Assembly (NCBI GenBank): GCA_050084515.1
Contig: CM114271.1
Coordinates: 15,004,001-15,068,000 of the forward strand
Length of the DNA: 64,000 nt
Direction of reading: 5' to 3'
From: Blasia pusilla
Taxonomy: Eukaryota
The notes beneath the pieces were generated by a model. It saw nothing but the letters and a program-made list of their open reading frames with translations. It ran no database searches and was not told where the DNA came from. Made by a program: the position numbers and the translations under genes. Of this stretch, positions 11,494 to 48,892 are shown in pieces (position 1 is the first letter of the stretch; every line of letters begins with the position of its first letter).

Positions 11494-11634
11494 CTAAGTA
11501 CATCGAGGACAAACCCACCTTCCAGTAGGAACAACATCCAAACGTGGAGTCAAACACCTCATGTGCCAACCCCTAGAACACCGATCACACACCAACATAC
11601 GGGCTGCGTTACCAGCAGACCCACACAACATGCA
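11494..11634 (-). pseudogene. PHD finger (C4HC3) at the C-terminus of the retrotransposon integrase
   Basis: CMLCGSAGNAARMLVCDRCSRGWHMRCLTPRLDVVPTGRWVCPRCT* has all eight zinc ligands plus the conserved W before the last CxxC. It is in the same ORF (11494-12024) as the integrase tail RFHVGDYVYL. Confidence 0.92.
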
Positions 11635-14600
11635 CCTCAAGCTAGCACGTATCATGGCTAAGCTTGGGTCAACAGTACCATCGACATTTGGAAGATGACA
11701 TGGCGCACAATTACGCATATGGTCCTTCCAAACAACTCCATCACGACCCTCCAACATGAGAACTCCAGAAGCTAACACCTCGCGCACTCGTAAAATAGTG
11801 CGGCCTGCCGTCACATCCAACGTTGTCGGTGCAATCTGCTGCAAATAGACATAGTCCCCCACATGGAACCTACGAATCGATGGTCGATAACCTCCACGAA
11901 TGGTTGCATACCATAGCAACGTATCCCTGTGTTGAGCAATGGCAAGATTCTCAAAGGTGTTGGCATAACTCTCCAAAAGAGCTCCGGCTGAGAACACACC
12001 CTCATCCACATCTCGGGTCATCAAGGTTCACCACCTCACTAGACTCGACAATTCTTTCTTTGGCAAGTCCGGATCTCGGCCGTATAAAGAAAATAAGGTG
12101 AGAAGGAAGCCAAGGATGCTTGGCGATCGAACCTATACCCCATGGCTAACCATGGCAATCGAATATTCAGTCTCCAAGATGCCCTTCAGAGGCCATACTT
12201 GCGCAATGCCCTCTTCACCGTCTGAACCACACACTCAGCCAAACCATCCGCCTCTGGATGATCTCGAGACGTGGTCCGATGATCAATCAACGCCTTGTCA
12301 CACAAGACTTGAAACTCACCTGAAACTCTGACCTGGTCGGTCAAGACTTGGTGGTGCACCAAAATGACTAAGCACTCTATCCAGAAATGCATACGCCGTT
12401 CCTCACTTGCCTTGTCCGGTAATGCCACCAACTCAATCCACTTGGAGAAGTGCTCCACCATCACCAACACATATCGATGATGATGTCGCATACCAACGGT
12501 AACGGTCTCGCAAAGTCCACACTCCAACGGTAACCCAAACCCATAATAGGCAAGGGGTGTAATTGTGGTGTAGGGGCATTAAATGATGCCCTCACCCGGT
12601 CACAAACCATACAACGTGACACCAACTACTGCACCTGAGTATGCATGCCACGCCACCAATACTGGCCAAGGAGTAAGCTATACGTACGCTTTACCCCAAA
12701 ATGTGCCAACTCCTCATGGGCATGTTGCACAATGCGCTCTCTCTGAGCCAAATGTGGCACTACTCGTACTCTACCATCCTCCCACACGCGTAGAATATGT
12801 GTTCCCTCCAATCGATACCTCTTAGCACGTTGAAGAACACGGTCTCGCTCCTTGGCACTCACTATGCCTGGCACCCTACTAGTCCGTAGGAACTCCAACA
12901 CCAACGCATCATCATGAATATCAGGCTGATCCGTACCACCATCTCCAACCTTAGGATCTGAAGGCTGGCCATCTACCCTCTGACTAGAGTAAGATATCAT
13001 GTGGTCCTCCATACTAGAGTCCACCCCTAACCAACATAAAAAGGCGGATGCATGCCAACCTGGCACCATCTCCTCATCAACCTCGCCATGCCATCTAGCC
13101 CCAGTTGTATCCTCTTGGCTAGTACATGGGTTCCTACTCAACCCATCAGCATCAAGGTTGGCAACTCCAGGTCTATGTACCACCGGAAGTCATACTCTGT
13201 AAGATAAGAGCCCCCGTGCAAGCTTCCCCTGTAAAGCTTGTCCGACTCCATCAACCACTTGAGCGGATGGTGATCAGTAACAAGGGTAAACTTTGTGCCG
13301 AACAAGTAACACCTAAAGTGTGCCACACCCACACTCTTGCCAAGCACTCTCCCTCATATGAACTATAGCGACTTCGCTGCATTATTCGAACGACTTGCAT
13401 AGGCCACCACAAACTCCATGTGCTCATCATCATGTTGTGTCAACACCGCTCCAAGTCCCAACCTACTCCAATCGTGTGTAATCTGAAATGGGCGCCCTCG
13501 ATAGGTCTCCTCAAGATAGGCGCCGCCACCAACTGGGCCTTAAGCTCCACAAACGCTCTCTCTGATCATCTCCCGAGGTGCCACTCTTGATCTGATTTCA
13601 GCAATTGGTTCAAAGGCTTTGCCATAGCACTAAATCCCTTCACATACCTCCGATAGTAGTTCGCCAATCCCATGAATGCTCAAACTCTACTCACATCTAC
13701 CGGACGGAATAAGTGCAATAGCCTCCACCTTTGCTTGCTTTGAACTCCCAAACCACCTGGATAGATCACATGACCCAAGTACTCAACATCCTCATGGAAG
13801 AACTTACACTTTCCTGGATGCAACGTAGACCATGAGCTTTCAACCGCTCAAACACCATCTGCAAATGTATGTGATGCTCCTCCACCATGTTACTGAACAC
13901 CAAGATATCATCAATGTAACACCGAACAAAATCCAATCTTGCTAGGATCCTGTCCATCACTCTTTGAAATTCGGCAGTGCATTCTTCAACCCAAAGGGTA
14001 AGAATTTCCACTGGTACAAACAATCCTTGCCATGAGAGTTGACACCCCAAAATCTTTGTCTTGGCCTTGTCACTCTCCCGAATCGGCAATTGATGGTATC
14101 TGCCGAAGATCCAAATCTGAAAATCTTTGCCTGTCCCACCACATCAAAGATCTCCTCAGGTGTAGGCATGGCATACCTATCGGCCTTGGTTTGCCGATTG
14201 ATAGGGACGGTAATCTCCACACATCCGCCTATCCGTGTAGTTGCCATGCATATCCTTTTTAGCGAGCATGCATGAAGGGGCGATGCATACTCTCCATGCG
14301 ACAACTCCACTAATCCAGCCTCCAAAAGGTCCAACGCCCTACTGAATCAAGTCCCTCTCCATATCACTATATCGGTAGGGACAACGGAAGATTGGTGTAT
14401 CACTAGCCAAATCAATCCATACCGGGTCCAACCAGAGAACCCAACTCCTTCATGCTAAAGGCAAAACAACTCCTATAAGCACGTAGGAAGCGTGTCAGCG
14501 TCGTTTCTCACCTCCCGTAAGCTTGGGCCCAAGTAATGGCTCCCAAGTCTCCTCCTTTGGCACACTAGAGGAGAGAGCGATGCCATTGGCGCTCGCAACC

Positions 14601-14834
14601 CCCTCACAAGATGGTACACCCTTAGCTACAACATCATCGAGAAAATAACTCCGCCACCAAAGATGAGCAACCAACTCCACATGCCCAGCCATTACATACC
14701 ATTTACTCCAAGGATGCAAAATACTACTCTCCTCGCTTGACCGATGCCTCTACCGTCCGGTAGCCATCGAGCTCATTACAAGGGGTGGAAGACCCCAGAC
14801 ATAGTCCAAGAAGTCGTATTTGCTCGCCATACCA

Positions 14835-15785
14835 AGACTCAAAATCCAAGTCAAACAATTTAGGTCCATGGCCTGACCCAACACATGACGTCGTGAAGCC
14901 TCGAAATAGAAGCAACCATTTGTCACACGATAGCAAATCCCCCATCGACGCTCTCTCTCATCAGCGTTAGGCTCCACCAACTGTCGCACATGAGAATCCC
15001 ATACTAGCCCCGGACCACCTTCCCTGTAGGCATGTGACGAGGGAAAACTCAAAAATGTGGGTAGTGCCATCCTAGGATGGCCCACACGGTTCACCACTGC
15101 CATGGGTGACCGATCAATAACCCTCACCACTTGAGAAAGTCGCCCAAGATATCAAGATACTATCCCTTTGTAAGGCGAGGATCATTTGCCTTTGCATCAT
15201 ATGCTCGACGTAGAACCTTCCTAGGCAACAAGTTTGTCCACCACAAGCGTGGATGATGTGCACGCGAGCCAACTCGCGCTGCATCCAACAACACCGCTGG
15301 TCCAATCCAAGACCGCACCTCATAAACACTCGCCATCATCCGGGTCCGAGTGTCACCCAACAATGGAACATTCTCGAATGTAAGCTAGAGCACGTGCCTG
15401 ATGAACTTGAAGATTTCGTAACACCCGTAACATCTCCCAAAACAATCGAGACCTAGGGTCATGTAATCCCTCACCCCGACCAGCACGTGTATGACCCTGA
15501 CATGGCCATCCAGCAATCACCAAATCCACAGGACCAATCCTCTCAAGGTCCTGCGCCCCAACAATGCAATGTGTGATGGTAAAAGCATTTGGTACCCACG
15601 AATAGCGATGGCGGCAACAACTCAGGGTATCTCGCATCAAGCGACTTATATGTCGAGATGAGACTCTCTGGGCCGTCTCATCTCGCTCCACATACACGTA
15701 TCTCCACACAGGAATACCGGCCTGCAACACTGCCGCCAAACCAGTGCTAATCCCACCAAAGAGATCTAACACACAAATGCCCTCC
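14835..15785 (-). pseudogene. DNMT3-like cytosine-5 DNA methyltransferase domain within the pol of copy 1 (frameshifted)
   Basis: Motif I ICVLDLFGGISTG; motif II YVYVE; catalytic motif IV DLVIAGWPCQG (~15494-15514); motif VI ENV (~15370, after a small frameshift); motif VIII LDAARVGSRAHHPRLWWTNL; motifs IX-X EPNADERER...SRRHVLGQAMDLNCL. Confidence 0.92.
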
Positions 15786-16932
15786 GGCGGATCGCCATAC
15801 AATGGGTGTAGTATCCAAAGGGGATAACCAATGGACAGAAGTAGGAGTCCGCCGTGGGGCCTCCCCTTCCTCGTGAGGTATAATGACCTCACACCAAGCC
15901 TCTGCACTAGGCGATCGCCTCTGCCGTAGTGCACCGCTGAACTCCAAAGTGGCACATCCAACGATGAGGATGCCCTTTGCTGCAAAAATAGGGACCTCCT
16001 CTACCTCTCTCATGCGCAGGAGAATCCATAGCGAAACATTACCCTCCAAAAGTCTCTGGCCAAGTGACTACTCCACTAAAACCAGCCCACAGGATGCTAA
16101 CACTTGTTGGGAAGAACCTCTGGTTGAGCCCGAAATAAATCTCACAGAACTTGGCTCATACGTCCATCCCGGACTGCCAACCTGGTCTATAAGACGCATT
16201 TGTCTCGATCCAAGTAATCCATCTGAAAACCCATCGGTACAATATTGCTCCTCCAACTAGTACATCATACGACTCGGGTGGTGTGACTACATGCAGATAC
16301 TCCCAACCGGGAGCTATCGGTCGCATGATATGGTCTCAAGCTGTATGAAAAACTTTTCTGTGTCATGAATTGAGACCTATCATTGGCTCCTCCAAGTGAT
16401 GTTTGAATCTGGAATGGGCAAGGCTCAAGCTCGACCTCCGAATACCCAAACCAATACATGCCGCCTTTCCCAACATCAAGGTTGGGCACGAGTCTAACAA
16501 GACTCTATCGGGTCTATACACTGTCTGTAGGACTTACCAATCGGAAGATCCCACTGGTTGTCCAACATACATACACCAGGTGTGAGCCTCTCACGATCAA
16601 TGGTGGCCGGGTGGTAATGCATCCATCTTCGCCGCTGGTGCCTGCCAAGTAGCACTGGTACTCAATGCTACTCCTAACATAGAGGGTCGCTCCACCGCAA
16701 CACCCTCATCCACCTCAACACGTGTAGCAGTAACACCCCCACGTTCACACAACGTGGCTGCTAACTGAAATACAGGAGCTAAGTCAACTCCTAAAGCCAT
16801 CGACTCGTGGCGAAAACAATGGGGATCCCAACACCGAAGTTGCCATCCGCAATCTTGCATTGATCTTTGCATCCGTGTCTACTACACGCGATGTAGATGC
16901 CTCAGTCCCCACTGTCGGCTCAATAGGCTGCG

Positions 16933-16986
16933 TAGGAACCATGGATGGAGTCCTAAGCATAGGAACCATGGATGGAGTCCTAAGCA
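16933..16986. repeat. Perfect 27-bp in-frame tandem duplication inside copy 1
   Basis: TAGGAACCATGGATGGAGTCCTAAGCA occurs twice (LRTPSMVP repeated). Copy 2 has a single unit (MRTPSMGP). Confidence 0.9.
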
Positions 16987-17274
16987 CCTCTGACAACAAG
17001 AATGACTGGGGAAGCCTAGCCTGCCTCCCAGCCTCACCCCTCTGTGGGTCCAACTCCACAGTAGCACCACGTGGCTCTGACGCTCGAGTGGCTCCTCAGA
17101 ATAGCTGCTGGTGATGCCTCGGATGCGCACACAGATTCACACTGCAACATAGGCCACAAGCCACGAACATCCACGGTGAGTACACAATCAGCCCTAACCA
17201 GATCCTCTTGATCTACAATCGAAGCTACCATCGATCTACTCCAGTTCTTTGAGTGAAATCCGTGAAAGACCTAC

Positions 17275-35425: not shown

Positions 35426-37695
35426 ATGGAGGATATTTCAGCCAACAATGCATCTAGGGGTAAGAGACAAAAATCCCTTACTGATATGGGATTTATGAAG
35501 AGGACTGTCAGTGAACCAGCAGCAGAAACCAACTCATGTGAGGAGATAGATTCTCCTTCAGATCTTGCCTCTTCAAAGATTGAAGAGAACAATAGGCTTT
35601 GGAAAGACTCTTGGTATCAAGCTTTTGAATGGATTCAATTTGAGCCTCACACGGGGAGGGTATTCTGTAAAGTGTGCAAGGACTCAGGAGGGAAATCTGT
35701 ATTTGCCACATCCGGAGCCATCAATGTGAAGATTTCTGCCTTCAGAGACCATGGTAAATCCAAGGAACATAAAAAAAACTGGCTTGGGCTCAGTATAGTG
35801 GTAGAAAAACTCTACAGAAAGCTATTGCAAGCACCAATAGAAACTGTGATTTAGTGGTGCTTAATCTTTTTTGAGGAGCATACTTCATGGCTAAGTATAA
35901 TATTGCATTTTCTTCATTCCCTGGTCTCTGTACATTACTCAAATCTGGATCTATGATGCTCACAAAATCGATGTATCAGGATGACAAGACATGTGCACAT
36001 ATGAGAACATGTATTAGTTTAGTAATTCAAAGATTGCTTCTAGCTAGGGTTAGACTTAGTCCCTTTTACGGAATAATGGTAGATGAATCCACTGACATAT
36101 CAGTAATAGGACACCTTGTTGCCTTTGTCACTTACCTTGATGAAGGTCAAGTGTGCACCTCCTTCTTAGGATTGATCAAGGTTGAGAATAAGGATGCCGA
36201 GTCCATTTCATATTGTTTAGTATCCTTACTTAGGGAATGGGAATTGAATTTTGAGAAGATGTTTGGTTTTGGGTCTAATGGGGCCAACACTATGGTAGGT
36301 AGTAGGAATGGGGTAAGTGCCCGTTTGAAGAGGAATGTTAACCCTTACATGACAAGCGTCCAATGTGTGGCACACCGGACAAACTTAGCTGCTCTTGCAG
36401 CAGCAAAGAGCCCAGGGTGCAAGGAACTTAGTGATGAGGTGGATAACATTTTGAATTCTGTTGCATTTTATTTCAAGAAGATTTCTAAGAGGAAGTCTGG
36501 TCTCTCTTCTCTACAAGAGGAGCTAAACGATTCTAGGAAAGTCATGAAACGGTATCAGAAGGTCAGATGGCTTAGCAGGTGGCAAGCCGTTACCTCTTTA
36601 TGTGATAGTTTAGAATCGGTCATGGTCTACTTCTCTACTGTGAATCCGAGGGAAGATGATGGGGTAGCTTCACATCTTCTAAAGAGGTTAAAGTCCTTCA
36701 AAATGATTTACATTTTATACTTTCTGGCTGACATCCTTCATTCTATGGCAATGTTGGGCAAGTTATTCGAGATGAAGTTTGTTGATATATCTAGCGTTGC
36801 TTCTATTGTTTAGACTGAGATAGCACATGTTAGAATGAATTATGTACATGAAAGTGTAGATATGAATGCCTATCTCATTTCTCAGTCTAGCGGTTTTAAT
36901 CTCCTTCCGAACTATGGTCCTACTGATGGATATCTGCAGCGCTTGCAATCAGAGATAAGGGGTTCTTTCTTTCATTCAATCCAAATGGATAGGGATATGA
37001 CAGGAAAGGATTTAGAAGAAGATGTTTTTTTCCAAAGGAATTTTGCTGAGGCGATATGTGTAGCTTTGCAAGAAAGGTTTGAAGACAATAACATCATTGG
37101 AGGTTTTAAGATCCTCAATCCATCCCAAATGCCTTCTACCATATCCAGTTTAAGAGATTGGGGTGTGAGAGACTTGGAAATGTTGAGCTCTTTCTATGGA
37201 CAGGAAAAAAGCTTGCATGGCAGGGTGAAAAAGCCTATTCTAGATGGTGCAGCCCTCAAGAATGAATTTTTGGCCTTCAAGATTCAGGCCTTGACAGAAT
37301 GGAAGGAGAAGTCCTTCAAGGACTTATGGTGTATGGTAAGTGGTAGTCCGATCCTGAAGGCTAAGTATGCTAATCTCTGTATTTTAGGTGATATAGCTAG
37401 AGTCCAATGTGTATCAACACCATCATGTGAGAGAGCTTTTAGCATTCAGAATGTCATTAAGAATAGGTTAAGAAATATCTTAACCTCTTATCACTTGGAA
37501 GCTTTGCTGAGGGTTAATATGGAGGGTCCAAATGAGAATTTTGATGTGGATAAGGTCCTCATTTCTGCTATGGACACATGGAAACAGTCAAAGGAATATA
37601 GATTTGTATATGCTAATCGAGAGTTGTACATTGTTCCTCCCGTTGTACTTGAAGCTGCTGAGGAAGGTGAGCTTAACCCTAACCTTTCATCCTAG
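35426..37695 (+). pseudogene. hAT transposase (ZNF862/DUF4371-like), split by frameshifts into three ORFs
   Basis: TTF-type zinc finger W..FEW...FCKVC...H..SKEH; FYGIMVDESTD; GFGSNGA (expected catalytic D reads N); CVAHRTNLA; VRWLSR; C-terminal dimerisation motif STPSCERAFSIQNVIKNRLRN. Breaks near the A8 run at ~35771, at ~35870 and at ~36810. Confidence 0.92.
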
Positions 37696-37802
37696 TTTCT
37701 CTATGACTTCATTTCATTTTGCAAATGCTTTTACTAGTTATTTATTTTCTATAGTCAAACCCCTCCTACAAAGAAAGTTCATTTTATGAATACTCCTTGT
37801 AG

Positions 37803-38089
37803 GAAGGGTTCTTAGCACCTCTTGCCCCCAACTGGTAGGGGAAAATTCTGGTTCAACTCCAGCCAGAGGTAATGAGGAGGTGAGTTGAGAAGGCTAAGAA
37901 GGGTTCTTAGCACCTATGGCCCCAAACTGGTAGGGGGAATTCTGGTTTAACTCCAGCCAGAGGTAATGAGGAGGTGAGCTGAGAAGGCTAAGAAGGGTTC
38001 TTAGCACCTCTGGCCCCCAATTGGGAGGGGGAATTCTGGTTCAACTCCAGCCAAAGGTAAAAAAATGAGGAGGTGAATTGAGAAGGCTA
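37803..38089. repeat. Three-copy ~94-95 bp subterminal tandem repeat in the hAT element
   Basis: GAAGGGTTCTTAGCACCT...AATTCTGGTTYAACTCCAGCCA...GAGGAGGTGA...GAGAAGGCTA starts at 37803, 37898 and 37992. Confidence 0.92.
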
Positions 38090-40291
38090 CTGGGGACTTT
38101 GATAATAACCAGAACTAAACTGAAAGGTAGAAAATGTGACAGCAAAAAACTGGCATGCCAATTCCAAGCCCATAAAAAAATTGGTGATTCAAATTACATG
38201 CAGGAAATAGCCTGAGAAGGAAAAAAATCTTGGGCAAAAACCTGATAAGGTAAAAAGTCTTAGGGGGTCGGCTGAGGCATATTTCAGAAAACCTAAATGT
38301 TTCAAATAGTCCCGGTAAAAATACTGTCCGAGCCCTGTTTGGGAGGTACCTTAGCTTCACCCCTGCTACAGCGCCGGACCCGGGTAACCGTAGCTAACAA
38401 TAGGCTAAAGTGCTTTTGCGCCTAATATGGGACTCCATTGTCGCTAAGTCACCGGAGATGCATCGCTGCTTAGGGCACGGCCAGCTGATTCGTGATCCTG
38501 CGGCTAGCCACATCGCCAACCTTGCTTCCGCTATCCAGCTAACACGCCCACTACGCTGCCACACAGCTGCGTAGTTGGGGCTAGACTTGTGGCCTAGTGC
38601 CCGAGCCTACTGCCGATGATCGTCTCACTCCTACGTTCGACCCCTGGAGCGACCTAGTCCGAAAAACGTCCGTCCGCCTACGTCCATCTGGCTCCGTCTT
38701 CAACCGCGGCTAGCGCCGCTTCCGCTGCTCGCCCTCTTTAGCCACCAACTGTGCCGCAGAGCCGACATTCTCCCTCAACCGGCCGTGCCCAGTTTTGCCC
38801 GACCGACCCGTTTTAGCTGCCGACTCAGACCTGCCACGACCGTGTTTTCCCCTCCGTCCAGCCGGCTGCTACTGCCGCGACCGAGCATCTACTGTTGCCC
38901 TGGCATGTGGGAGTAGCCGCTACTCCCTCCTACTACTGCCAACCGCGATCAACGGCTCCAACTCACTTGCAGTCGGCGGCTGCACTTCCGGCCCTCTGGC
39001 CACTGATCCCGCGGCCTTGTGCCTGCGTTTTGGGGTTCCGTTGCGCAGTCCGTCTCACCGTCCGTGCGACCGTGCCGGGTTAGTGCCACCTGCCGTCAAG
39101 TTGATTCTGGCTCGGCCACAACTGATTAGCTACGGCATCGCGACCACCTCCTGGCCGTGACTCTCGGCCATGCGTGACTGCGTGACGTTGTAGTTGCTTG
39201 GTTGTCGCATCTGTTCATCCCCTAGTGACGGCCCTTTGTTCGTCTAACTACCTTCACGGCCTTATGTCCATTGCCGTTATATTAATGACGGCCATCGACA
39301 CGTTGGAGGTCCGCGCCACCATGCACTTGTTCTTGGCGGTCCACTTCACGTGCCAAAAATCATCGACCGATTGTGAGTATTGGCTAGGAGGGCAGGTAAT
39401 TTTTGTGGATTGATGGGGTCGTAGTTTCTTTCCCGCTTTGCCATGTCCAGAGAGGCAGCCGTTCGAGGACGATCAAGTACCATGCCGTGACGCCCGTAGC
39501 CGCAATGCGCCGCCAATTGCCGCATCGTGCCGCTTGTGGCTGCTCCGCACCGTTTGGATCGTGGATCCGCACCATCACTGGGAGATGAGCGTGTGTTTTT
39601 TTGATTGAGGAGGTTATGCCACCGAGTGCCGCATTCCATTCACGAGTGCCATGCCGTTTTTAGCCGTTGCGTGCCACCAGTGCCACACCGTACCGCTGGA
39701 CCCGCACTGCACATCGAGGAGATTTGAGCATTGTCGGTACTAGAGGAGTACGACTTGCTATTTGGAGGAGTTGTCTTCACAACCGAGTTGGGATCGAGGT
39801 TTTTCAGTTGCCGAGAAGTGGCATAGAATTTTATTCAAGTTACCCATTCTGGTCTTTTGCCCTGCACGTGTTAGGGAATTCCGAGTATTGGGCAATTATT
39901 TGGGATATTGGGTTTCGTGTTGATTCTGAGAGCATCATTGATGTATGGGTTTAGGGGACATAGACCTGTGTGGGATGTCCATAGTTGAGGGTGTGTCCTG
40001 TCAATGAGATGATAGGACAATACATGATTTTCCGCACCACGCCGCTTGTTACCGCACAACACACGTCTAAATGAGAGAGTGCAGCTTGAGTGCTGCATGT
40101 TAGATTGAGTGATTGCGTGATTACTTGCGAGGTTGAGAGTGATCGTGTGAGAGGGGCACGAGGGTCATCACGACGTCCTTTCGGGACTTTGAGAGGGGAG
40201 GTGGTGGACCTGAGAGTAGCTCTAGAGGTTTATCCAGAGTGGTGCAAGGTTTCGAGGGTCTCCACGCGAGAGACCACCTCGATCTCCTTCT

Positions 40292-43200
40292 GTGTCGTCT
40301 TCAGACAAGGGGGAGAGCATAGAGGAATGTGTTAGTGATCCACCGCACACATTGAGTGGTCCTACCAGTTGGGCGTACGAGATGGATGACCTGGATAGAG
40401 GACCGCGTAGGTTTTCGGGTGCTGTAGGCACAATAGAGTTGCACTACTTTATTGCAGAGTTTAGGAGTTGGTGTGACTCGCCGCGGGCTAGGAACTCTAG
40501 AGAGTTCAACGCGTTTACAAAATGGATCGGTATGTTCTAGCACCTAGTGAGGGCACCCATGGACGATTACCATGAGTTCTCCCATAGATATGCCTAGGAG
40601 ATTGAGGCATGGCAACTCTACTATGACCCACATTATGTGTCATGGACTGAGCCGTTCCCAGATGAGGATGAGGAGTCAGGAGAGGTTACTTCCTCTTCTG
40701 CGAGTGATGTGTTAGGAGGGGTGACTCGCACTGGAGCAGTTGCACCATCTAGTCGGGTCCGTCCTAGGTTCCCCCGTGGTTGAGTTCTTTGCTGAGTTGC
40801 GAACAAGCTACCAAGGGGATACGGACGGAGAAGTTGCAGAGCATCCACGACTTCCAGAGGCGCCCGGGTGAGAGTTTGCGTGAGGCCTACACTCGCTTGC
40901 GTAGGTTGATTAACGTCACTCAAGAGGTGACATAGGCCTAGGCTATCCAGTCATGGTACGTGATGCTGGACCGAACCCTGTGGACACAGGTGCGGGAGGG
41001 GGTGCTTCTTATGAACACCTCACCCACGTTGAGAGATGTTTTTAGGACCACCGAGAAAATTGAGCGCAATGTGGCGGAGAAGACCGTAGCTACCATGGGT
41101 TTTGGGCGAGAGCAGTCACGATTGTCTGCACCACTAGTGCAACAACATGGATTCCGAGATAAGTCTCTGGCACCACGAGCTCAGGGAGGATACCGGGAGG
41201 TCATGCCACAGAGACATGTGCCTTCATATGCGGCTCAGCAGCAGTTGCCTACGATTATTTGTTGGTCATGTGGTGGAGCCCATCATCAGGGCGATTTCAC
41301 TCGTGAGGGTCATGGACGCGTGCCTCAGCATGGAGGAGGAGATGGTGCTGCACCAAGAGGTTATTAGTGTTACTATTGTCATAGGTACGGCCACACATGC
41401 GCCGGGTGTTTCAGCTTGCACCCTGAGTTACGTCCGGACCGAGGGCTAGAGGGAGCACCAGAGCAAGTTTCCGGTCCGGGTGGGCTTAGAGGTCATGCAC
41501 TAGATGTTCCGGTTGGAGGACGAGGAGTTGGATTCACCCGAGGGGGTGGTGGAGTTGCCCATGGAGGAGGTAGAGTCCACCACCTAGACGGGTTGAGGGA
41601 GATGTTGGGCGTGAGGCTGGGATGGCTGCTCAGATACAACAGCTACAGTAGCAAATTGCCGCTATGGCATTGAGGCTACCTGATGTCGGATCTGTGGCAT
41701 CGACGTCTTGTGGAGTAGCCAGAGATATGAAGGATCCTGGTTGGATGTGCGGGTTTGCTCAGATGGAGGCCGCCGCAATGGTTACGCGTGGAGCAACTGC
41801 AAAGTTGGATCCATAGCGAGGGCAAGCCAAAAACCGACTCGGCTTCCTCAGTCTTTCCAGTTGTTTGAGGCGATGAGGACCCCATCGATGGGTCCTGATC
41901 AGTGTTCCCGGAGAGTTGGTGAAGTTTCTGGTGTGCAAGCATGGAGGGCGAAGGGAAAAGCAAGTGCGACGACTCCTATTGTTGATGCTCAAGAGGAGCA
42001 TGTATCGAGCATGTTGTTGGGGGCCACCACTATTGTGTACCACACTCCTTTATTTTCTGCTTCCGATGTTATGACGTTGGGAGGTTTGCCCGCCGAGGTT
42101 TTACGGCTGGCCGCTATGCTATGTGAGCATGGAGTTGGAGTTCCTGCATCACATTCAAAGGTGATTGCAAAGGAGGTGATGGACCTACCCTTATAGTCGA
42201 TGCTCGGGCTGTCCACGTCAGAATCATGGCAAGTTGCAGTTGCTAGGATGGCGGAAATGCCTGCTAGACCCGCGATAGAGCGTGCCATGGCTTCTCATGG
42301 TGTTGTATTGTTGGATAACCGGGGAGAGGTCTTCGAGTTGGTGAGTCCAAGAGGAAGAGTTTTTCGTCCGTAGCGCGTCTTGTTGGATTGAGGATCGCAA
42401 CCCCTGATGTTGGTGAAAGCTACATTCAAAGGATTGGGCTTGACAAGAGCCGATGTGGAGCGTTGTCCATTTCGGATACAAACATCCTTGGGTGGAGCAA
42501 GTACCACACAGTATATTACCCGACATGAGGTCGTGGTGAGGATTTTCCCAAGACATCCTAGAGATGAGTCCGTGGTGCAAGCCAAGGCGATAGTGACCGA
42601 TGTAGAGTCCTACGACGTCTTGGTTGGTGGAGCAGTGTTGTACCCGATGGGGTTTTCCCTGGATTATTGGGAGGAGTTAGCATCCTACAGACCAAAATGG
42701 AAGTCCGGTGATGGACGACTTTGTTCATTACCCGTTTGATTCACAGGTGCAGTGCTCGAGCAACGGCCAGGAGAGATGGGGACCTTAGTAGCATTTAGCA
42801 GCGCCATCACTTGGCCTAGTGATTTGATTGAGGGACATGCCCATGCAGAGGACACTCTCGTTCCTGATATTTCTATGGAAAGAAGTGTCATGGTAGCTCC
42901 ATCAATCCGTGGAGGCAAGATGCCGCTTTGGGGCTTGACTGAGGAGCTTCGAGGCTTAGCCGCTGAGCATGTGTACACCGTGTGGAGCGAGGCGTTTGCA
43001 CCAAAGCGTGTCGGGTCAGAGGAACCCGAGGTAGAGAGGAGTGCTCCTATGACCCCTTTGGACACCACCCCGATTGTGTGGCGCATCCCAGAGGAGGGTA
43101 TTCGTGTGTTGGATCTCTTTGGAGGGATCAACATTGGTTTAGCTATTGTTTTGCAGGCAGGAGTACACGTGCAACAATACCTATATGTGGAGATTAATGA

Positions 43201-46099
43201 TGTTGTGAGGTGTGCTTCACTCCACCATGTGATGCAATTACGCCTACGTGTTCCCCACTTGTTGTCTGTGTCCGTTGTCCAAGGATACCATAGTTCCCTA
43301 CCAAGGGATATTTCATTGCTAGGGGCGCAGGACTTGGAGCGGGTAGGGACCATAGACTTGGTCATTGCTGGTTGGCCGTGTTAGGGCCAATCAAGAGCCA
43401 GACAAGGTAGAGGATTAGCTGACACTCAGTCCATGTTGTTTTGGGAGATGATGCGGATCTTGCGATACTTACAAGAGCATCAATCTTGTTCTCGAGCATA
43501 CATTCTGGATAATGTGCCGATTTTTGGGCGATTCGAGGTTCCGCATGGTGACAAGTGCACATCAGGTGCGTGCATGGATCAGCCCGGGAGTGTTGTTAGA
43601 TGGGGCAAGTGTAGGTTCACTAGCACATCGTCCGCGTCTCTGGTGGACTAACTTGGTGCTACATGAGGTTTTGCGGAGGGCATAGGTGAGAGTGGAGCGC
43701 CCCTCCGATTTTAAGGTGGATTCTATTCTGGACCCAGGTCGGCGATCCCAGATAGTGAGGCACGATGATCAACAGTCAATCCTCATGCCACGAGCAACCT
43801 TTCCCACTTTGGTGAGTTTTCCTACTTCCGATGCATTCCAATGCAAGGAGGCCGGGCTTGGCTTGGTTTGGGATGACCAGGTATAGCGGTTGGTGGAGCC
43901 CAACGTCGATGAGCGAGAGCAAGCGATGGGATTCCCCATACGAGTGACGACACTACCGTCACTATCAGAGGCATCACGACGTCATGTCTTGGGTCAGGCG
44001 ATGGACCTGAACTGCTTGACATGGATTTTCAGCTCAGGAGTAGTTGAGCGGTGTTGTTTGAGGATGCAACAAATCACAGTTGTTGCATTGGTGAGCCCCA
44101 TGCCTACCGAGACGGTTGAGGTAGTGGCTGGGGGCGAGACCCGAGGAGATGGACACATCGGGGGTGATCAAGGGGGACACCCTTGGACTGCTTGGGATGT
44201 TTTGCAGGTACACCAAGAGATGGTAGCTATAACATCAAGCGTGGTTGTGGGCACTGCACATGGAGATCCGATTTTGCAGTTGGTTGTAGGAGAGCAGTCG
44301 AGTTCTGTTGTTCAAGATGGGGTTGCACCATAGCAGCCACTAACACCCATGTCGGAGAGTCCTACCGTAGTCATGATGGAGACTTGGGAGCCATATATGG
44401 GCCCTAAGTTGACACGAGGAGAGCGGCATCGGATACACTCCTATAATTCCTTAGGAATTATATGGGTTGTTTTGCATTTAGCATATATGATTTGAGTATG
44501 TTGAAGGGCCTAGGGATCGCATTGAGTTTTTGAGTGACATGTCGATCTTCTAAGGACCCTACAAGTACAGTGACATGGACAGGGCTCTGATTCAGAGTAG
44601 GAGTCAGGACTTGGTTGGAGCAGGACTATTGGAGATGTCACATGGAGAGTATGCATCTGCCACTATCATGCCCACCAAGAAGGATGTGCATGGCAACTGG
44701 ACGGATAGGCAGATGTGTGAAGATTACCGACCTATCAATCAATAGACGAAGTCCGATAGGTATGCCATGCCCACTCCTGAGGAGAATTTTGATGTTGTTG
44801 GGCATGCAAAGGTCTTCAGTTTGTTAGATCTTCGAGCCGGATACCATTAGTTGCCTATCGGATTGGAGGACAGACAGAAGACGGCTTTTTGGGGATCAAG
44901 AGTGGCACCAAAAACTTTGGGGATCATGGATGGCACTTGGGGGATGAGCGAGAGAGTATTTCAGATGCTCAAAGATAGATTGACGTCCGCGCCCATATTG
45001 AGGAGACCGATCAGGGGGCGTCCTTTCCAATTGCATACCGATTAGAGCATGTTTGGGCTTGGAGCCGTGCTCACCCAACATGACGATGAGGATAGAGAGT
45101 TCGTGGTGGCTTATGCTAGTTGCTCGAACAACGCTGCAAAGGCAAAGTATAGCCCATATGAGGGTGAGTGTTTGGCTGCAATGTGGGCTTTCGCACATTT
45201 CACATGTTATTTTTTCGGCAACTCTTTCACCATTATTACTGATCATCAACCACTTAAGTGGTTGATGGAGCCGACAAGCTTAGAGGGAAGCTTGTGAGGT
45301 GGGCTCTTTTGTTGTAGGAGTATGACTTCTAGGTGGTGCATAGAGCTAGGACGCTCAACCAAGACGCAGATGGTTTGAGCCGTAACCCATGCCCGAGTTA
45401 GTGAGATGCGATTGGAGCTCGTTGGCATGGAGAGAGTGATGAGGAGTTGGTGCGAGGATGGCACACATCACCCAATTTGGGCTTGTTGGCTATGGAGAGC
45501 CAGATTACTAAGACTTTGATGGCGAGGTCTGATGGAGAGTCCTTAGATCCAGAGGTCGGTGAGGAGACGACATGTGGCTGGGACATTCACAATGATGGAG
45601 TGGTCTTGGAGTACTTGTGTATTGGCAGTGTTGTGAGCACAATGGGTGCTAGAGAGCCGGATTGGATCCTATAGCAAGCCAGATAGTTCCGGTGGGAGGG
45701 GACACATGTGTTGCGAGTGTGGGAGGATGATAGAGTATGTGTAGTGCCTCATCCTTTATAGAGAGCAAGTTTGGTACGTCATGCCCACGAGGAGTTGGGT
45801 CAATTTGGAGTGAAGCGGACGTACAATTTGCTCCAGATACAATATTGGTGGCGAGGCATGTATATTGACGTCCATCAATTTGTTGCCAGGTGCAGGGTTT
45901 GTGATTGGGTCCGAGGATCGTTCAATGCTCCGACTCCATAATTGCATCCACTTCTGATCATGGGTTTAGGTTATAGATGGAGTTTGGATTTTGGAGGACC
46001 TTTACCTTTTATGGAGCGACATAGTTGTTATGTGTTGGTGATGGTCGAGCACTTCTCAAAGAGGATAGAGTTAGTTACATTGCGTGCCTATGGTGTCCA
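40292..46099 (+). mobile_element. Ty3/gypsy retrotransposon copy 2 (degenerate): gag - protease - C5 DNA methyltransferase - partial RT - RNase H - truncated integrase
   Basis: Gag-like GPRRFSG...FIAEF (~40400). Zinc knuckles CWSCGGAHHQGD (~41260) and CYYCHRYGHTCAGC (~41368). Protease VLLD*GSQPLML (~42380). DNMT 43091-44040. RT start DRYAMPTPEE...LDLRAGYH*LP...KTAFWG. RNase H PFQLHTD, IITDHQPLKWL. Integrase HAHEELGQFG, RWSLDFGGP, VMVEHFSK, truncated at ~46085. Colinear with copy 1. Confidence 0.92.
43091..44040 (+). pseudogene. DNMT3-like cytosine-5 DNA methyltransferase domain within the pol of copy 2
   Basis: IRVLDLFGGINIG; YLYVE; IDLVIAGWPC* (CAG to TAG at 43381); AYILDNV; LDGASVGSLAHRPRLWWTNL; EPNVDEREQAMGFP...SEASRRHVLGQAMDLNCL. 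Confidence 0.92.
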
Positions 46100-46945
46100 T
46101 GTTAGGAGGGACCCAGGAAGTGAGTTATAATCGCGAGTCCAAGAAGGAAAGATCTTAGTGTGACCCACCAATGTCAAAACCTAGACTAGCTAGGAAGGGT
46201 GTTAGGACTAGGCCCTATGTAAGAGGCGTACGTATCTTGAGACAAGCCTTACGTGAGAAAGGGGCATACAAAGGCAAAGTCAAGTAAGGATTGAGACTTT
46301 GGGGCCAAGCACCAATCTATGGACGAAAAGTAAGGAACATGTGAGTAGTCAAGATGGATGAGACAACACAAGACTAGTCACGAAATGCGAAGGGCGGCAA
46401 GACAACCATGAGATGCTAAATGGGGAGTCAAGATGGGCGCTAGCCAATAGAAAAATAAAACTCGGGTTCAAGCTCCAAGTGCTTTTGGGGAGCCAAAAGT
46501 TACACAATCTTCAACTTAATCTCAAAGGTTAGCCTCCGCGAAGCCATCTTAATGTATAACTCGTCAAACGCTAATCCGCAGATCGTGAACTACGTTTGGG
46601 TTGAGGAAAAAAATCAAGGGACGGAGGGAGATAATGGGGAAGGTGGGGTTACATTCTCCCTCACTACTTGGCATACCCGCTTAAGTCCTTAAACTAGGAA
46701 ATAACAGTGATGTGTGTTTGGTTACGTTTCCTATTTGAGCTAGGGGACGCACCTTGAGGAATTAATCGTCACATTTTGGTATAGGTGTTTGGGGAGATTG
46801 GTTGAGGCTTGGGAAAGAGGCTTCAAAGTGAGACGATACATAATTGGGGAGACTTGACTCGATAAGTGCTCGGTAATTTCTCGGCTATCTACAAAAAGCC
46901 CAACCAATTGAGTCTTCGAGACTTAACCTAAATCTTCTACTAACA
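46100..46945. mobile_element. Possible LTR-like segment truncating the integrase of copy 2
   Basis: Begins TGTTAGG close to where integrase homology stops; CTAACA at 46940-46945; no TSD found. Confidence 0.3.
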
Positions 46946-48892
46946 AAGCTCAAGGTTGAAAGGGCTTCGCAGAAAAGCTAGAAAAAATATATGTCAAACT
47001 CTATAATGACACCAAATCATAAGGATAAGGATATACAAAGGAACCACTAAAGAGTTAATTATATCAATTCCTAAAATTGATCAGCGACAACTATGAAAAC
47101 CTTAATACAAAAACTTAATTGTGGTGTTTTGTTAGCCCCCCATTTTCTTTCTTATGGGTTTTTTTCTTAAAGAAGGAGAATACGAGGGATATTGAAGGAA
47201 ACTTCTATAAGAGAAATGACATTCGTGAAAAATTCTCTAAAGAGAGACCTCTTTAATATAAACATAGCCATATGTCATGCAATGGCTTACATTACTAATA
47301 TGATGGAAATCCAAATAAGGGTACAAACAGGTGTGATTGTATGTCCCTTTGAGTCTCCCCAATAGGTCATGTACTTAGGGATGAAATTTGTCAAATTTTC
47401 TATTAAGGTGGTAGATGGAGGAGGAATGTAAAAGGCTAGTTAAAATGGTTTAGGTCCAAGCTTGGTCATTATGGTATTTATGATGGAAATCTCGACCCTC
47501 AGTCCAAATTACGACCCCCAGTCAAAATTTTAAAGGATAACCAACTACGATAACATCCGCATGCAAATGTTACAATAATTCAATTTTGAGAACCTCAACG
47601 GATTTCCGATGTTCTTAATGGGAACATAATATAAGAGATCCAATGACGTTATATGGGTGTCCCATGGGCCGCCAAATGACATGCCCAATTACAAGTTGCT
47701 TAAATGCATAACACATGCTTACATCACTAATATGGCAAGTAACACAAGGGGCCATGTTTTCCCCTTGTGAAGGAGTATTAGACAAGTTGTAGAGGCATAT
47801 GAGAATCGGTTCACACAATATGGGATGTATGCATTCCTATGATATTATATTTGAGAATCCAGATTTGATAGAGTTTGTTAGACGGCCCATATCGGTATGA
47901 TATACATAATTTATCATTAGTTTAGGAATTTAAACAATTTTCCTTTCATCCCAAAAATCACATAAGACTAACAAAATTCCTCTTAAAAAAAACTCCCCTA
48001 TCCCCTCACCCTCAAGTTGGAGGCACTTAGTGTGCTTCTCTTGGTGGATGATTGGCATTGGGCCAAGCAAGTGAGATGCATGAGGAGGAGGGCATGTTTT
48101 TCTATATGCAATGTTTTTTCATGCCTCATGTTTCAACTTGCCCTAACCAGGCGATGTGTGCTCCTTGGCACTCAAGAAGGGAAAGGGAAATGCTACATCT
48201 CACACTTGGATGGAAATGGGCGATGGCAAGGTGCACCCTCTTTCGGACAATATTGAGCCAAGCTTACTGCATAGAATCCTTGAGTGGAGCTGGTCGCACC
48301 CGGGACATCCTAACCTATGTCATAACTTATGAAAGCATACTTTGACAAGAACCAATTCACGAGTGCCAATTCCTCCATATTAGGGAAGATAGCAAGTATC
48401 ATGGTGGCCTTAATATGATGCCTCGCGCTTATTCATCCTCGGATTAGAAAGCCCGAGGTTAGGTTAGTGAACCTTGATCCCTCTCTAAAATTCTGATGGA
48501 AAGGAAGGTTAATTGTTTTACGTTATCCTTACTGTTGTGCAAGAGACTATACCAAAATGGGCAACTCCTCCCCTGTAGAACAGCAGGTCGTGTGTTCGAA
48601 TGTGGGTGGTATGTTTGACTTTGTCTAAGTGTCTCTCACTACTTAACTCGACTCTCACCCTCCATGGTTTAACTTGAGGATGAATAGACACGAGAATACA
48701 ATGGAATGTCATATGAATAATACAATGCAAAAATGCCAACTACTTCATCTTTCTTTGGAGGCCCTCCCACGAGGGAAGGGTTATGGAGTTAGGGATTAGC
48801 ATATGGTGGGGTCTCAAAATAGGGGGTCCTAAAATGGTACTACCTCCTTTGATCATTTCGGCCCGGCATAACCCCATTGGAGATATTTCTTC

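What the first reader, a model, noticed from the sequence alone, without database searches (positions are those of the whole stretch)
43091..44040. A second, diverged copy has the DNMT at the same position, so it is a family trait
Seen: copy 2, in opposite orientation ~27 kb away, has the same protease-DNMT-RT order. Peptides are conserved (PLDTTPIVWR, VLDLFGGI, GAQDLER.G..DLVIAGWPC, LWWTNL, RRHVLGQAMDLNCLTWI) although the DNA differs at many positions. Inference: protein conservation despite DNA divergence suggests purifying selection on the MTase while the family was active. Two copies in 64 kb suggest a high copy number.
Basis: partly seen in the sequence, partly recalled or inferred. Interest (0 to 1): 0.8.

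Follow-up and report, generated by a model that had tools for sequence, protein, structure and literature searches.

The report
Dead Gypsy retrotransposons carrying DNMT3 methyltransferase
Two long-dead copies of a jumping gene that carries its own DNA-methylating enzyme sit in this liverwort-like genome, and the enzyme is an old, conserved feature of a large family of a kind already described in a green alga.

Summary
Window 43088-44051 (+) is the C5 cytosine methyltransferase (DNMT) domain of a second Ty3/Gypsy-type element. It lies between protease and RT, as in the copy at 14819-15830 (-).

The two copies are only 65-73% identical in DNA, with synonymous sites near saturation (pS 0.69). 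They are not a recent duplication. Both are pseudogenes and lack one end.

With reading frames fixed by a Marchantia outgroup protein, DNMT dN/dS is 0.17 (0.09-0.26). RT+RNaseH+integrase gives 0.16 (0.08-0.24). The methyltransferase was therefore as constrained as the replication enzymes.

The domain is DNMT3-type: the family profile matches DNMT3A at E 1e-28. The same gag-PR-DNMT-RT-RH-INT(-PHD) layout occurs in Marchantia, Calypogeia and Sphagnum, and collinearly in a Klebsormidium protein. On an RT-RNaseH tree the slot changes once among 87 rows.

Whole-genome reads at least 80% alike pile up about 2,000-fold over flanking single-copy depth, across the DNMT as well. Sense-strand RNA reads are present.

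This is a new member of a known kind (Gypsy-DNMT3; de Mendoza 2018). Earlier notes of this scan reported the same family in mosses and liverworts on other DNA. What the enzyme does for the element remains inferred.

The parts
40379..41450 (+). Copy 2: gag-like region with two Cys-X2-Cys-X4-His-X4-Cys knuckles
   Evidence: tblastn with Marchantia P0002 residues 9-354 and Sphagnum P0047 residues 3-270. The knuckles are read directly from the translation. Pfam gave no hit on this piece. The 5' limit of the element was not determined; read depth is already high at 40000.
41706..42740 (+). Copy 2: protease region and linker. In-frame stops at 42371, 42389 and 42737.
   Evidence: tblastn with P0002, P0014, P0029 and P0338. 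Relatives carry Pfam aspartyl protease domains at this position.
43088..44051 (+). Copy 2: DNMT3-type C5 cytosine methyltransferase domain (the finding). It is a pseudogene, with stops at 43382, 43683 and 43884 and a frame change near 43529.
   Evidence: Pfam PF00145 at E 8.4e-8 with X at the stop. Three-way alignment with a Marchantia protein. It keeps 24 of the 29 columns that are at least 90% conserved in 72 relatives.
44358..44907 (+). Copy 2: N-terminal part of the reverse transcriptase. About 90 codons of RT are missing between about 44800 and 44950.
   Evidence: tblastn. blastn gap against copy 1: 14082-13592 has no partner. Length difference of -273 nt against the reference. There are 1,078 whole-genome reads with loose ends at 44950.
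44947..45297 (+). Copy 2: RNase H
   Evidence: Pfam RT_RNaseH PF17917 at E 3.1e-24.
45333..46085 (+). Copy 2: integrase zinc-binding part and start of the core. The element is cut off at 46083-46085.
   Evidence: tblastn ends at 46085-46088. Depth falls from 2,984 to 114 in the next bin, and 1,363 reads run on unlike the window behind 46083.
16168..17095 (-). Copy 1: protease region. The gag part was not found upstream.
   Evidence: tblastn with P0002 residues 446-1017 starts at 17095. There is no hit to residues 1-445.
14819..15830 (-). Copy 1: DNMT3-type methyltransferase domain. It is a pseudogene, with stops at 15624 and 15162 and four frame changes.
   Evidence: Pfam PF00145 at E 1.8e-7. 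PDB best match is DNMT3A at 1.1e-7. It keeps 27 of the 29 conserved columns.
13183..14572 (-). Copy 1: reverse transcriptase and RNase H, with many frame changes
   Evidence: Pfam RVT_1 at E 7.4e-9. tblastn.
12177..13189 (-). Copy 1: integrase (H2C2 zinc-binding domain and catalytic core)
   Evidence: Pfam Integrase_H2C2 at E 2.2e-10. rve at E 1.2e-4, which is below its cut-off. tblastn with P0047, P0338 and P0409.
11494..12027 (-). Copy 1: integrase C-terminal region ending in a PHD finger (11500-11634) and the stop codon
   Evidence: Pfam PHD PF00628 at E 4.2e-11. The intact relative P0338 aligns through its own C-terminal PHD, residues 2041-2344 against 12399-11500.

Best explanation
The finding is the methyltransferase domain of an old, dead, 3'-truncated Ty3/Gypsy-type retrotransposon (copy 2, about 40379-46085, plus strand). 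A second dead, 5'-truncated element lies at about 17095-11494 on the minus strand (copy 1).

Both derive from a clade of streptophyte elements whose polyprotein reads gag(CCHC)-protease-DNMT-RT-RNaseH-integrase-PHD. The DNMT is a non-rearranged DNMT3-type catalytic domain without the host enzyme's reader domains. The two copies belong to two sub-lineages that separated long ago. They inserted independently, so they are not a duplication.

Shown here:
- the domain order;
- the DNMT3 affinity;
- purifying selection on the DNMT equal to that on RT/RH/INT while the lineages were active;
- conservation of the slot across liverwort, moss and charophyte relatives;
- a copy-2-like family of roughly 2,000 copy equivalents in this species, with sense-strand transcripts.

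Inferred, at about 40%: the enzyme is made as part of Pol. It methylates the element's own newly made cDNA or its fresh insertion, in cis. The PHD finger on the integrase reads histone tails to steer integration. The element thus sets its own chromatin state on arrival. The window's two copies can no longer do any of this.
For: - Domain order from Pfam and tblastn with intact relatives.
- DNMT3 type. The family profile matches the DNMT3A catalytic domain at E 1.4e-28, DNMT3C at 1.3e-26, DNMT3B at 4e-25, plant DRM at 6e-14, M.HhaI at 3e-9 and DNMT2 at 4e-5. There are three collinear stretches. A single copy-1 piece matches DNMT3A at 1.1e-7.
- Selection. DNMT dN/dS is 0.174 (bootstrap 0.094-0.258, 284 codons). 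RT+RH+INT-N gives 0.157 (0.082-0.237, 293 codons). Differences at codon positions 1, 2 and 3 in the DNMT number 91, 72 and 155.
- Conserved columns. Of 29 columns at least 90% conserved in 72 relatives, copy 1 keeps 27 and copy 2 keeps 24.
- Relatives. There are 48 hits, of which 18 are named Marchantia, 2 Calypogeia, 2 Sphagnum and 2 Closterium.
- A Klebsormidium protein is collinear from protease into the DNMT N-terminus. It matches a Marchantia relative at E 3e-17 and copy 2 at E 4e-18.
- Slot stability. On the RT-RH tree, 11 of 87 rows have the DNMT before RT and form one side of a branch (SH-aLRT 97). The two window copies and 3 Marchantia rows form a clade (100).
- Separate lineages. DNMT identity is 57% between copy 1 and copy 2. 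Copy 1 is 75% identical to Sphagnum and 71% to Marchantia. The AU test against sisterhood gives p 0.007.
- Abundance and RNA. Depth is 1,246-2,984 per bin on 40000-46075, against a median of 0.84 on 46944-53000. The DNMT bins are at 0.6-1.1 of the element mean. RNA reads show the same strand bias as the plus-strand host gene.
Against: - No LTR pair, PBS or target-site duplication was found for either copy. The class assignment rests on pol homology alone.
- Synonymous sites are near saturation (pS 0.69). dS and the exact dN/dS are therefore imprecise. pN/pS is the safer figure.
- Codons entered the count only where each copy was locally similar to the outgroup protein. This favours conserved parts, though equally for all domains.
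- Pairwise dN/dS mixes the active phase with neutral decay after insertion.
- The copy-number figure rests on a baseline of about 1x from 1% of one run of the same species label. In that run, 64,602 of 104,983 laid reads fit only in part.
- RNA reads cannot be assigned to intact copies.
- The catalytic activity of this clade is unshown. The one Gypsy-DNMT3 domain tested in yeast gave no methylation, which its authors called inconclusive (PMC5890265, section 10 read).
- The cis-methylation mechanism is inference only.
Confidence: 0.85

Rival explanations
1. The two copies are a recent local inverted duplication of one element. On this view the shared DNMT says nothing about the family.
For: They lie in inverted orientation within 27 kb. 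The repeat finder lists them as three inverted pairs.
Against: DNA identity is only 65-73% and pS is 0.69. The lesions and truncations differ between the copies. Copy 1 is closer to Sphagnum and Marchantia proteins than to copy 2, and the AU test gives p 0.007.
Confidence: 0.01
2. The DNMT module is kept by selection but not as a DNA methyltransferase. It might serve as an RNA methyltransferase, a nucleic-acid-binding spacer in Pol, or a decoy that interferes with host methylation proteins.
For: The Klebsormidium Gypsy-DNMT3 domain gave no DNA methylation in yeast. Its authors called the result inconclusive (PMC5890265, section 10). Pfam matches only part of the PF00145 profile in most relatives, typically positions about 45-160 of 324.
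Against: Columns at the recalled catalytic motifs are invariant or nearly so in the relatives. These are Pro-Cys-Gln, Glu-Asn-Val, the Arg-x-Arg stretch and the C-terminal Gly. The profile aligns to DNMT3A over three collinear stretches from the SAM-binding end to the C-terminal end. SymbioDIRS-Dnmt3 domains do methylate CG in yeast (PMC5890265, section 10).
Confidence: 0.15
3. The DNMT is a neutral passenger that hitch-hiked with a successful element. It looks conserved only because too little time has passed.
For: Accessory domains in retrotransposons can be short-lived.
Against: Synonymous sites between the copies are saturated while pN is 0.27. The domain persists in one slot across liverworts, mosses and a charophyte.
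Confidence: 0.02
4. The high read depth comes from an unrelated repeat or from other Gypsy families that share RT and INT, not from DNMT-carrying relatives.
For: Reads were accepted at 80% likeness, and 89,172 of 104,983 laid reads are under 90% alike.
Against: Depth is high and even over all 14 bins from gag to integrase. The three DNMT bins read 1,743, 1,246 and 2,231 against a mean of 2,075. Depth drops sharply at the truncation point 46083.
Confidence: 0.07

Closest known systems
KnitGypsy-Dnmt3 of Klebsormidium nitens (de Mendoza et al. 2018, PMC5890265; outline, part 1 of section 5, sections 9, 10 and 11, and term passages read; figures and supplements not seen)
   Same: An LTR-Gypsy polyprotein with a non-rearranged DNMT3-type domain inside Pol. 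Key residues are conserved and Ka/Ks is below 0.2, against 0.17 here. A K. nitens protein (KFL_008410050, P0427) is collinear with the Marchantia relative from protease into the first DNMT motif and matches copy 2 directly.
   Different: The hosts are a liverwort-like plant and bryophyte relatives, not a charophyte alga. Identity to the K. nitens protein is only 25-27%. I could not check whether P0427 is one of the paper's named copies, nor the paper's domain order (Fig. 4c) or its DIRS-like repeat layout. The window copies show no terminal repeats at all. The paper reports few copies in K. nitens, whereas reads here suggest about 2,000 copy equivalents.
Animal DNMT3A/3B/3C catalytic domains (solved structures such as 2qrv)
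   Same: These are the best sequence-profile matches, at E 1.4e-28 to 4e-25. The matched stretches are collinear from the N-terminal SAM-binding part to the C-terminal motifs.
   Different: No PWWP or ADD reader domain is attached to the DNMT. The module is embedded between protease and RT. A PHD finger sits instead at the far end of the integrase.
SymbioDIRS-Dnmt3 and SymbioLINE-Dnmt of Symbiodinium (PMC5890265)
   Same: A DNMT inside a retrotransposon coding region, under purifying selection.
   Different: The backbones are DIRS (tyrosine recombinase) and LINE, in dinoflagellate hosts. The authors treat them as independent acquisitions.
EpiLTRs of Euglena gracilis and Cymbomonas tetramitiformis (bioRxiv 10.64898/2026.05.21.726589; passages read)
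   Same: LTR elements that carry a cytosine DNMT together with a chromatin-reader domain.
   Different: EpiLTRs also carry a Dam-type adenine methyltransferase and a chromodomain. Their DNMT is reported as sister to DNMT4, and in Cymbomonas it sits at the 3' end of pol. The window elements have no Dam, have a PHD in place of a chromodomain, and carry a DNMT3-type module. Three Dam+DNMT proteins in my set branch far from the window copies.
Green-algal and environmental Gypsy elements with RT-RH-DNMT-INT-PHD (unnamed group seen)
   Same: A homologous DNMT module: the two groups are sister groups within a 54-row clade, SH-aLRT 97. They share the C-terminal PHD finger.
   Different: The DNMT sits after RNase H, not before RT. 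The two layouts fall on opposite sides of one branch of the RT-RH tree.

Membership tests
Ty3/Gypsy LTR retrotransposon | Pol domain order protease, RT, RNase H, integrase | tested here: met
   Pfam RVT_1, RT_RNaseH, Integrase_H2C2 and rve on window pieces. Collinear tblastn with intact relatives in both copies.
Ty3/Gypsy LTR retrotransposon | Flanking long terminal repeats with a target-site duplication | tested here: inconclusive
   No direct repeat pair was found around either copy. Copy 2 lacks its 3' end and copy 1 its 5' end, so a pair could not be present.
Ty3/Gypsy LTR retrotransposon | gag with CCHC zinc knuckle | tested here: inconclusive
   Two knuckle-like spacings can be read in copy 2's translation, but Pfam gave no hit there. 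Relatives do hit zf-CCHC. No gag was found for copy 1.
C5 cytosine DNA methyltransferase (Pfam PF00145) | Profile match above the curated cut-off | tested here: met
   Copy 1 scores 31.4 bits and copy 2 scores 32.4 bits, against a cut-off of 22.
C5 cytosine DNA methyltransferase (Pfam PF00145) | Intact reading frame with catalytic residues, that is, a working enzyme | tested here: not met
   Both domains carry stops and frame changes. Copy 2 has a stop directly after the catalytic Pro-Cys and Asp in place of the conserved Glu of Glu-Asn-Val. They are relics of such enzymes, not enzymes.
DNMT3-type (as opposed to DNMT1, DNMT2, DNMT5, DRM or bacterial) | Closest to DNMT3 catalytic domains, with motifs in unrearranged order | tested here: met
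   Profile against PDB: DNMT3A 1.4e-28, DRM 6e-14, HhaI 3e-9, DNMT2 4e-5, and no DNMT1 among 54 matches. The three stretches are in the same order in query and DNMT3A. No tree with named eukaryotic DNMT families could be built, because no reference sequences were at hand.
Gypsy-DNMT3 of streptophytes (KnitGypsy-Dnmt3) | DNMT3-type domain inside the Pol ORF of a Gypsy element | tested here: met
Gypsy-DNMT3 of streptophytes (KnitGypsy-Dnmt3) | Purifying selection on the DNMT (the paper reports Ka/Ks below 0.2) | tested here: met
   dN/dS is 0.174 (0.094-0.258) on 284 codons, equal to RT+RH+INT.
Gypsy-DNMT3 of streptophytes (KnitGypsy-Dnmt3) | Common descent with the Klebsormidium elements | tested here: inconclusive
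   One K. nitens protein is collinear from protease to DNMT motif I at 25% identity, E 3e-17. It has no Pfam hit. I could not confirm that it is one of the published copies.
Gypsy-DNMT3 of streptophytes (KnitGypsy-Dnmt3) | DIRS-like arrangement of terminal repeats (A-coding-B-A-B; legend of Fig. 4c) | tested here: inconclusive
   No repeats of any arrangement were found around the truncated window copies.

The most novel reading that the evidence does not exclude
A single Gypsy lineage with a DNMT3-type module locked between protease and RT may have persisted, mostly vertically, since before mosses and liverworts split. It may go back to charophyte algae. In this large liverwort-like genome it would have amplified to thousands of copies, some still transcribed. 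Its enzyme would then be abundant enough to act in trans and contribute to the host's own methylation pattern. The green-algal RT-RH-DNMT-INT-PHD elements would descend from the same acquisition, with the module moved to a second slot.
Probability: 0.15. Interest if true: 0.7.

Novelty: new member of a known kind. Interest (0 to 1): 0.4.

Why it matters
Cytosine methylation is the main way plants silence transposons. A transposon that keeps its own de novo methyltransferase under selection reverses the usual roles.

The kind is known from one charophyte alga and from dinoflagellates. This window and its relatives add several points:
- The Gypsy form is also present in land plants (liverworts and mosses).
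- The module stays in a fixed slot across deep divergences.
- It was as constrained as the reverse transcriptase.
- In this species a family of this kind is very abundant and transcribed.

Bryophytes with genetic tools, such as Marchantia, therefore become a place to ask what the enzyme does for the element. In four searches I found no paper that describes these elements in bryophytes. The proteins themselves are already in public databases as hypothetical proteins.

Tried and rejected
Read depth was used instead.
- A codon alignment built by chaining tblastx matches between the two copies picked wrong frames, for example at 45331-45480. It would also have biased dN/dS downwards, so it was dropped. 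Frames were fixed by an outgroup protein instead.
- LTR searches by the repeat finder and by word-7 blastn of the surroundings gave nothing. One 49-nt inverted match (11173-11221 against 17664-17616, 82%) was set aside as probably chance.
- Pfam on copy 2's DNMT pieces split at the stop gave no family. Reading through with X gave the hit.
- Pfam gave no hit on the C-terminal DNMT pieces of either copy, on copy 2's protease or on its gag.
- The listing of cluster members on 10 representatives gave almost no organism names.
- The search of earlier findings by place and by sequence found nothing.
- No RNA holder was listed among the indexed runs. Raw RNA runs were laid instead.
- No structure was predicted and no complex job was sent, because sequence evidence for the fold was already strong.
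- No tree with named eukaryotic DNMT families was made, for want of reference sequences.
- The profile search covered only proteins of 1272-3630 residues. Shorter Klebsormidium models could have been missed.

Full report
OBSERVATION

On the plus strand they lie in three reading-frame pieces between 43049 and 44051. Their counterparts lie on the minus strand between 15830 and 14819. That is 27.3 kb away and in opposite orientation.

blastn aligns the two regions in three blocks:
- 64.9% identity over 1013 columns, covering the DNMT;
- 72.7% over 487 columns, covering the N-terminal RT;
- 69.3% over 1187 columns, covering RNase H to integrase.

Pfam finds the C-5 cytosine methylase family in both copies. 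Copy 1 scores E 1.8e-7 and 31.4 bits. Copy 2, read with X at its stop, scores E 8.4e-8 and 32.4 bits. The curated cut-off is 22 bits.

ANATOMY

tblastn with intact relatives lays out both elements.

Copy 2 (plus strand):
- gag-like region with two zinc-knuckle spacings, 40379-41450;
- protease and linker, 41706-42740;
- DNMT, 43088-44051;
- a partial RT, 44358-44907, lacking about 90 codons;
- RNase H, 44947-45297 (Pfam E 3e-24);
- the first part of the integrase, ending abruptly at 46083-46085.

Copy 1 (minus strand):
- protease region from 17095;
- DNMT, 15830-14819;
- RT and RNase H, 14572-13183;
- integrase, 13189-12177;
- a C-terminal stretch ending in a PHD finger at 11634-11500 (Pfam E 4.2e-11).

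No gag was found for copy 1. The PHD finger belongs to the element. An intact 2358-residue environmental relative (P0338) has protease, DNMT, RT, RNase H, integrase and PHD in this order. It aligns to copy 1 right through the PHD.

Neither copy has a detectable LTR pair. Since each lacks one end, this is uninformative.

Both copies are heavily damaged. From protease to the N-terminal integrase, copy 1 has 4 in-frame stops and 15 frame changes. Copy 2 has 15 stops and 3-4 frame changes, one of which is a mapping slip. Within the DNMT, copy 1 has 2 stops and 4 frame changes. Copy 2 has 3 stops (43382, 43683, 43884) and 1 frame change near 43529.

WHAT KIND OF METHYLTRANSFERASE

A profile of 21 relatives' DNMT regions (A1) was run against all solved structures. 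The matches were:
- DNMT3A catalytic domain, E 1.4e-28;
- DNMT3C, 1.3e-26;
- DNMT3B, 4e-25;
- plant DRM, 6e-14;
- M.HhaI, 3e-9;
- DNMT2, 4e-5;
- no DNMT1 among the 54 matches.

The three matched stretches run in the same order in the profile and in DNMT3A, so the domain is not rearranged as in DRM.

Motif names are recalled, not taken from a tool. Copy 1 keeps the Phe-x-Gly-x-Gly, Pro-Cys-Gln and Glu-Asn-Val stretches. Copy 2 has a stop directly after Pro-Cys and Asp in place of the Glu. Of 29 columns that are at least 90% conserved in 72 relatives, copy 1 keeps 27 and copy 2 keeps 24.

SELECTION

Choosing frames by similarity between the two copies would bias the result. A first attempt of that kind did pick wrong frames. 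I therefore fixed each copy's frame independently against an outgroup protein, Marchantia P0014. I paired codons that map to the same outgroup residue and left out stop codons.

Nei-Gojobori counts with 1000 bootstraps gave the following:
- DNMT, 284 codons: pN 0.270, pS 0.692, pN/pS 0.39 (0.33-0.46), dN/dS 0.174 (0.094-0.258).
- RT+RNaseH+integrase N-terminus, 293 codons: pN/pS 0.35 (0.29-0.42), dN/dS 0.157 (0.082-0.237).
- Protease, 83 codons: dN/dS 0.42.
- All 710 codons: dN/dS 0.20.

Other outgroups gave 0.16-0.25 overall. Differences in the DNMT fall 91, 72 and 155 on codon positions 1, 2 and 3.

Three caveats apply:
- pS is close to saturation, so dS is imprecise.
- Only codons locally similar to the outgroup were counted.
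- The pairwise figure includes neutral decay since insertion, which can only push it upwards.

The DNMT was as constrained as the replication enzymes.

NOT A DUPLICATION, BUT TWO OLD LINEAGES

DNMT protein identity is 57% between the copies. Copy 1 is 75% identical to a Sphagnum protein and 71% to a Marchantia protein. Copy 2 is at most 65% identical to any relative, its best being a Calypogeia protein.

In a careful tree of 40 DNMT rows, copy 1 lies inside a 16-row group with the Sphagnum and Marchantia rows (support 98/94). Copy 2 lies outside it. An AU test rejects the two copies as sisters (p 0.007). I named that grouping after seeing the quick tree, and copy 2 is a long branch.

FAMILY CONTEXT

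A search with copy 1's longest DNMT piece found 48 longer proteins. Of these, 18 are named Marchantia polymorpha, 2 Calypogeia fissa, 2 Sphagnum and 2 Closterium.

Pfam on 11 of them shows the layouts knuckle-protease-DNMT and DNMT-RT-RNaseH. An exhaustive phmmer search gave 1754 representatives at E up to 0.001 and 159 at up to 1e-10.

Pfam on 22 long representatives shows the homologous module in several settings:
- before RT;
- between RNase H and integrase, with a C-terminal PHD;
- together with a Dam domain, 3 of 22;
- in Copia-type proteins, 2 of 22.

A profile search returned 103 proteins of 1272-3630 residues. Most are RT-RNaseH-DNMT-integrase-PHD proteins from green algae (Monoraphidium, Scenedesmus, Cymbomonas) and environmental contigs.

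The same search returned one Klebsormidium nitens protein. It is collinear with a Marchantia relative from protease into the first DNMT motif (25% identity over 365 residues, E 3e-17). It also matches copy 2 directly (E 4e-18).

On an RT-RNaseH tree of 87 rows, the 11 rows with the DNMT before RT form one side of a branch (SH-aLRT 97). Those 11 include both window copies. The 76 rows with the DNMT after RNase H form the other side, so the slot changes once. Every row was chosen because it has a DNMT. The tree therefore says nothing about the number of acquisitions.

HOST AND ABUNDANCE

A 562-codon amino-acid-transporter ORF at 51009-52697 is closest to liverwort proteins:
- Marchantia, 69%;
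- Riccia, 67% and 65%;
- Calypogeia, 61%;
- mosses, about 55%.

The window therefore comes from a liverwort-like plant that is none of these.

No genome is held, so I laid raw reads of one whole-genome run of the same species label on 40000-53000 at 80% likeness. About 1% of that run was read.

Summed over both orientations, depth is 1,246-2,984 per bin on 40000-46075, with a mean of 2,075. On 46944-53000 it is 0-5.4, with a median of 0.84 and a mean of 1.26. This points to roughly 1,500-2,500 copy equivalents. The three DNMT bins (1,743, 1,246, 2,231) are in line with the rest of the element. Most family members therefore carry the domain.

Only 87 of 104,983 laid reads are 99% alike or more, and 89,172 are under 90%. 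Copy 2 itself is thus a single old copy among diverged relatives. Reads with loose ends pile up at copy 2's internal deletion and at 46083, which confirms that it is truncated relative to the family.

Three RNA runs give depths of about 17-157 on the element. The bias is about ten-fold towards the same read orientation as the plus-strand host gene, which has a depth of about 6-16. Sense transcripts of the family therefore exist. They cannot be assigned to intact copies, and per copy the level is low.

CpG observed/expected is 0.66 in copy 1 and 0.64 in copy 2, against 0.87-1.02 in two host ORFs.

HOW IT MOST LIKELY WORKS

Shown: a DNMT3-type module, made as part of Pol, was kept under selection in a fixed slot.

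Inferred, at about 40%: after processing or as a fusion, it methylates the element's own cDNA or its new insertion. The integrase PHD finger reads histone tails to steer integration.

The purpose is open. Candidates are avoiding recognition as foreign DNA, tempering the element's own activity, or protecting cDNA. These follow the discussion of PMC5890265 (section 11 read).

The main rival, at about 15%, is a conserved but non-DNA-methylating role. The only tested Gypsy-DNMT3 domain gave no methylation in yeast, a result its authors call inconclusive (section 10 read).

COMPARISON AND NOVELTY

The closest known system is KnitGypsy-Dnmt3 of Klebsormidium. It shares the Gypsy backbone, the DNMT3-type module inside Pol, and Ka/Ks below 0.2.

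A 2026 preprint refers to 'streptophytes (Gypsy-DNMT3)', citing that work (passages). [quoted passage not shown]

Searches for descriptions in Marchantia or other bryophytes found none. PHD fingers are a known accessory domain of retrotransposons (passages).

Two earlier notes of this scan, on other genomes, reported the same kind of element. One described it as common in peat mosses and liverworts. My independent hits in Sphagnum and Marchantia agree.

I file this as a new member of a known kind. The useful additions are equal constraint on the DNMT and the replication enzymes, clade-wide stability of the slot, two old lineages side by side, and a very high, transcribed copy number in this species.

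Noticed in passing
window 11500-11634 (-), and relatives P0338, P0117, P0168, P0122, P0175: The integrase of these DNMT-carrying elements ends in a PHD finger where chromoviruses have a chromodomain. One polyprotein thus combines a DNA-methylation 'writer' with a histone 'reader'. PHD fingers in retrotransposons are known in general. I found no description of the combination with a DNMT, though I made no search for it (my one PHD-finger search, did not include the DNMT).
   Followed up: partly
relatives (not in the window): A large group of green-algal (Monoraphidium, Scenedesmus, Cymbomonas) and environmental Gypsy polyproteins carries a homologous DNMT between RNase H and integrase, plus a C-terminal PHD. 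They make up 76 of 87 rows in the RT-RH tree. One (P0340) also has a Tudor-like domain, and two (P0175, P0384) a G-patch.
   Followed up: partly
window 11494-17095 against 40379-46085: The two dead copies decayed differently. Copy 1 has 15 frame changes and 4 stops. Copy 2 has 15 stops and 3-4 frame changes. Where family reads differ from copy 2, copy 2 has A or T against G or C in the reads at 509 places, and the reverse at 289. This fits C-to-T decay of methylated DNA in copy 2. Copy 1's excess of frame changes might instead reflect indel errors in the assembly, which was not checked.
   Followed up: partly
window 35381-37695 (+): Three adjoining open frames (157, 312 and 293 aa) resemble a domesticated or dead hAT-like transposase. 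Pfam gives zf-C17orf113 at E 2e-11 and DUF4371 at E 6e-7, the latter below its cut-off. CpG observed/expected is very low at 0.24.
   Followed up: partly
window 37800-38089, 48884-49095, 52954-54190 and 55109-55476: Several short tandem-repeat arrays with units of about 94, 70, 84-350 and 190 nt, 78-92% alike. The first abuts the GC-rich stretch upstream of copy 2's gag.
   Followed up: no
window 51009-52697 (+), 57376-58680 (+), 6954-7439 (+) and 18913-20181 (+): Host genes. There is an intronless AVT6-like amino-acid transporter ORF, expressed in the RNA runs. There is an MFAP1-family ORF (Pfam E 5e-73) and an ABC-transporter exon (E 2e-11). A 422-codon ORF next to copy 1 has no Pfam match.
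   Followed up: partly
window 45270-45403: RNA reads in all three runs (4, 7 and 3 reads), and no reads from the DNA run, skip 132 bases here, with 39 other letters in between in two of those runs (X19, X20). Whole-genome reads also show many loose ends at 45270. The likeliest cause is that transcribed relatives differ from copy 2 in this stretch, not splicing.
   Followed up: no
window 49619: Many RNA reads (90-146 per run) run on into an (AG)n tract that the window lacks behind 49619. This may be microsatellite length variation or a transcript feature.
   Followed up: no
read depth: About 1,966 million letters of the whole-genome run gave only about 0.8-1.3x on single-copy sequence. This implies a genome of roughly 1.6-2.3 Gb, large for a liverwort. 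It is a rough estimate from 14 bins.
   Followed up: no
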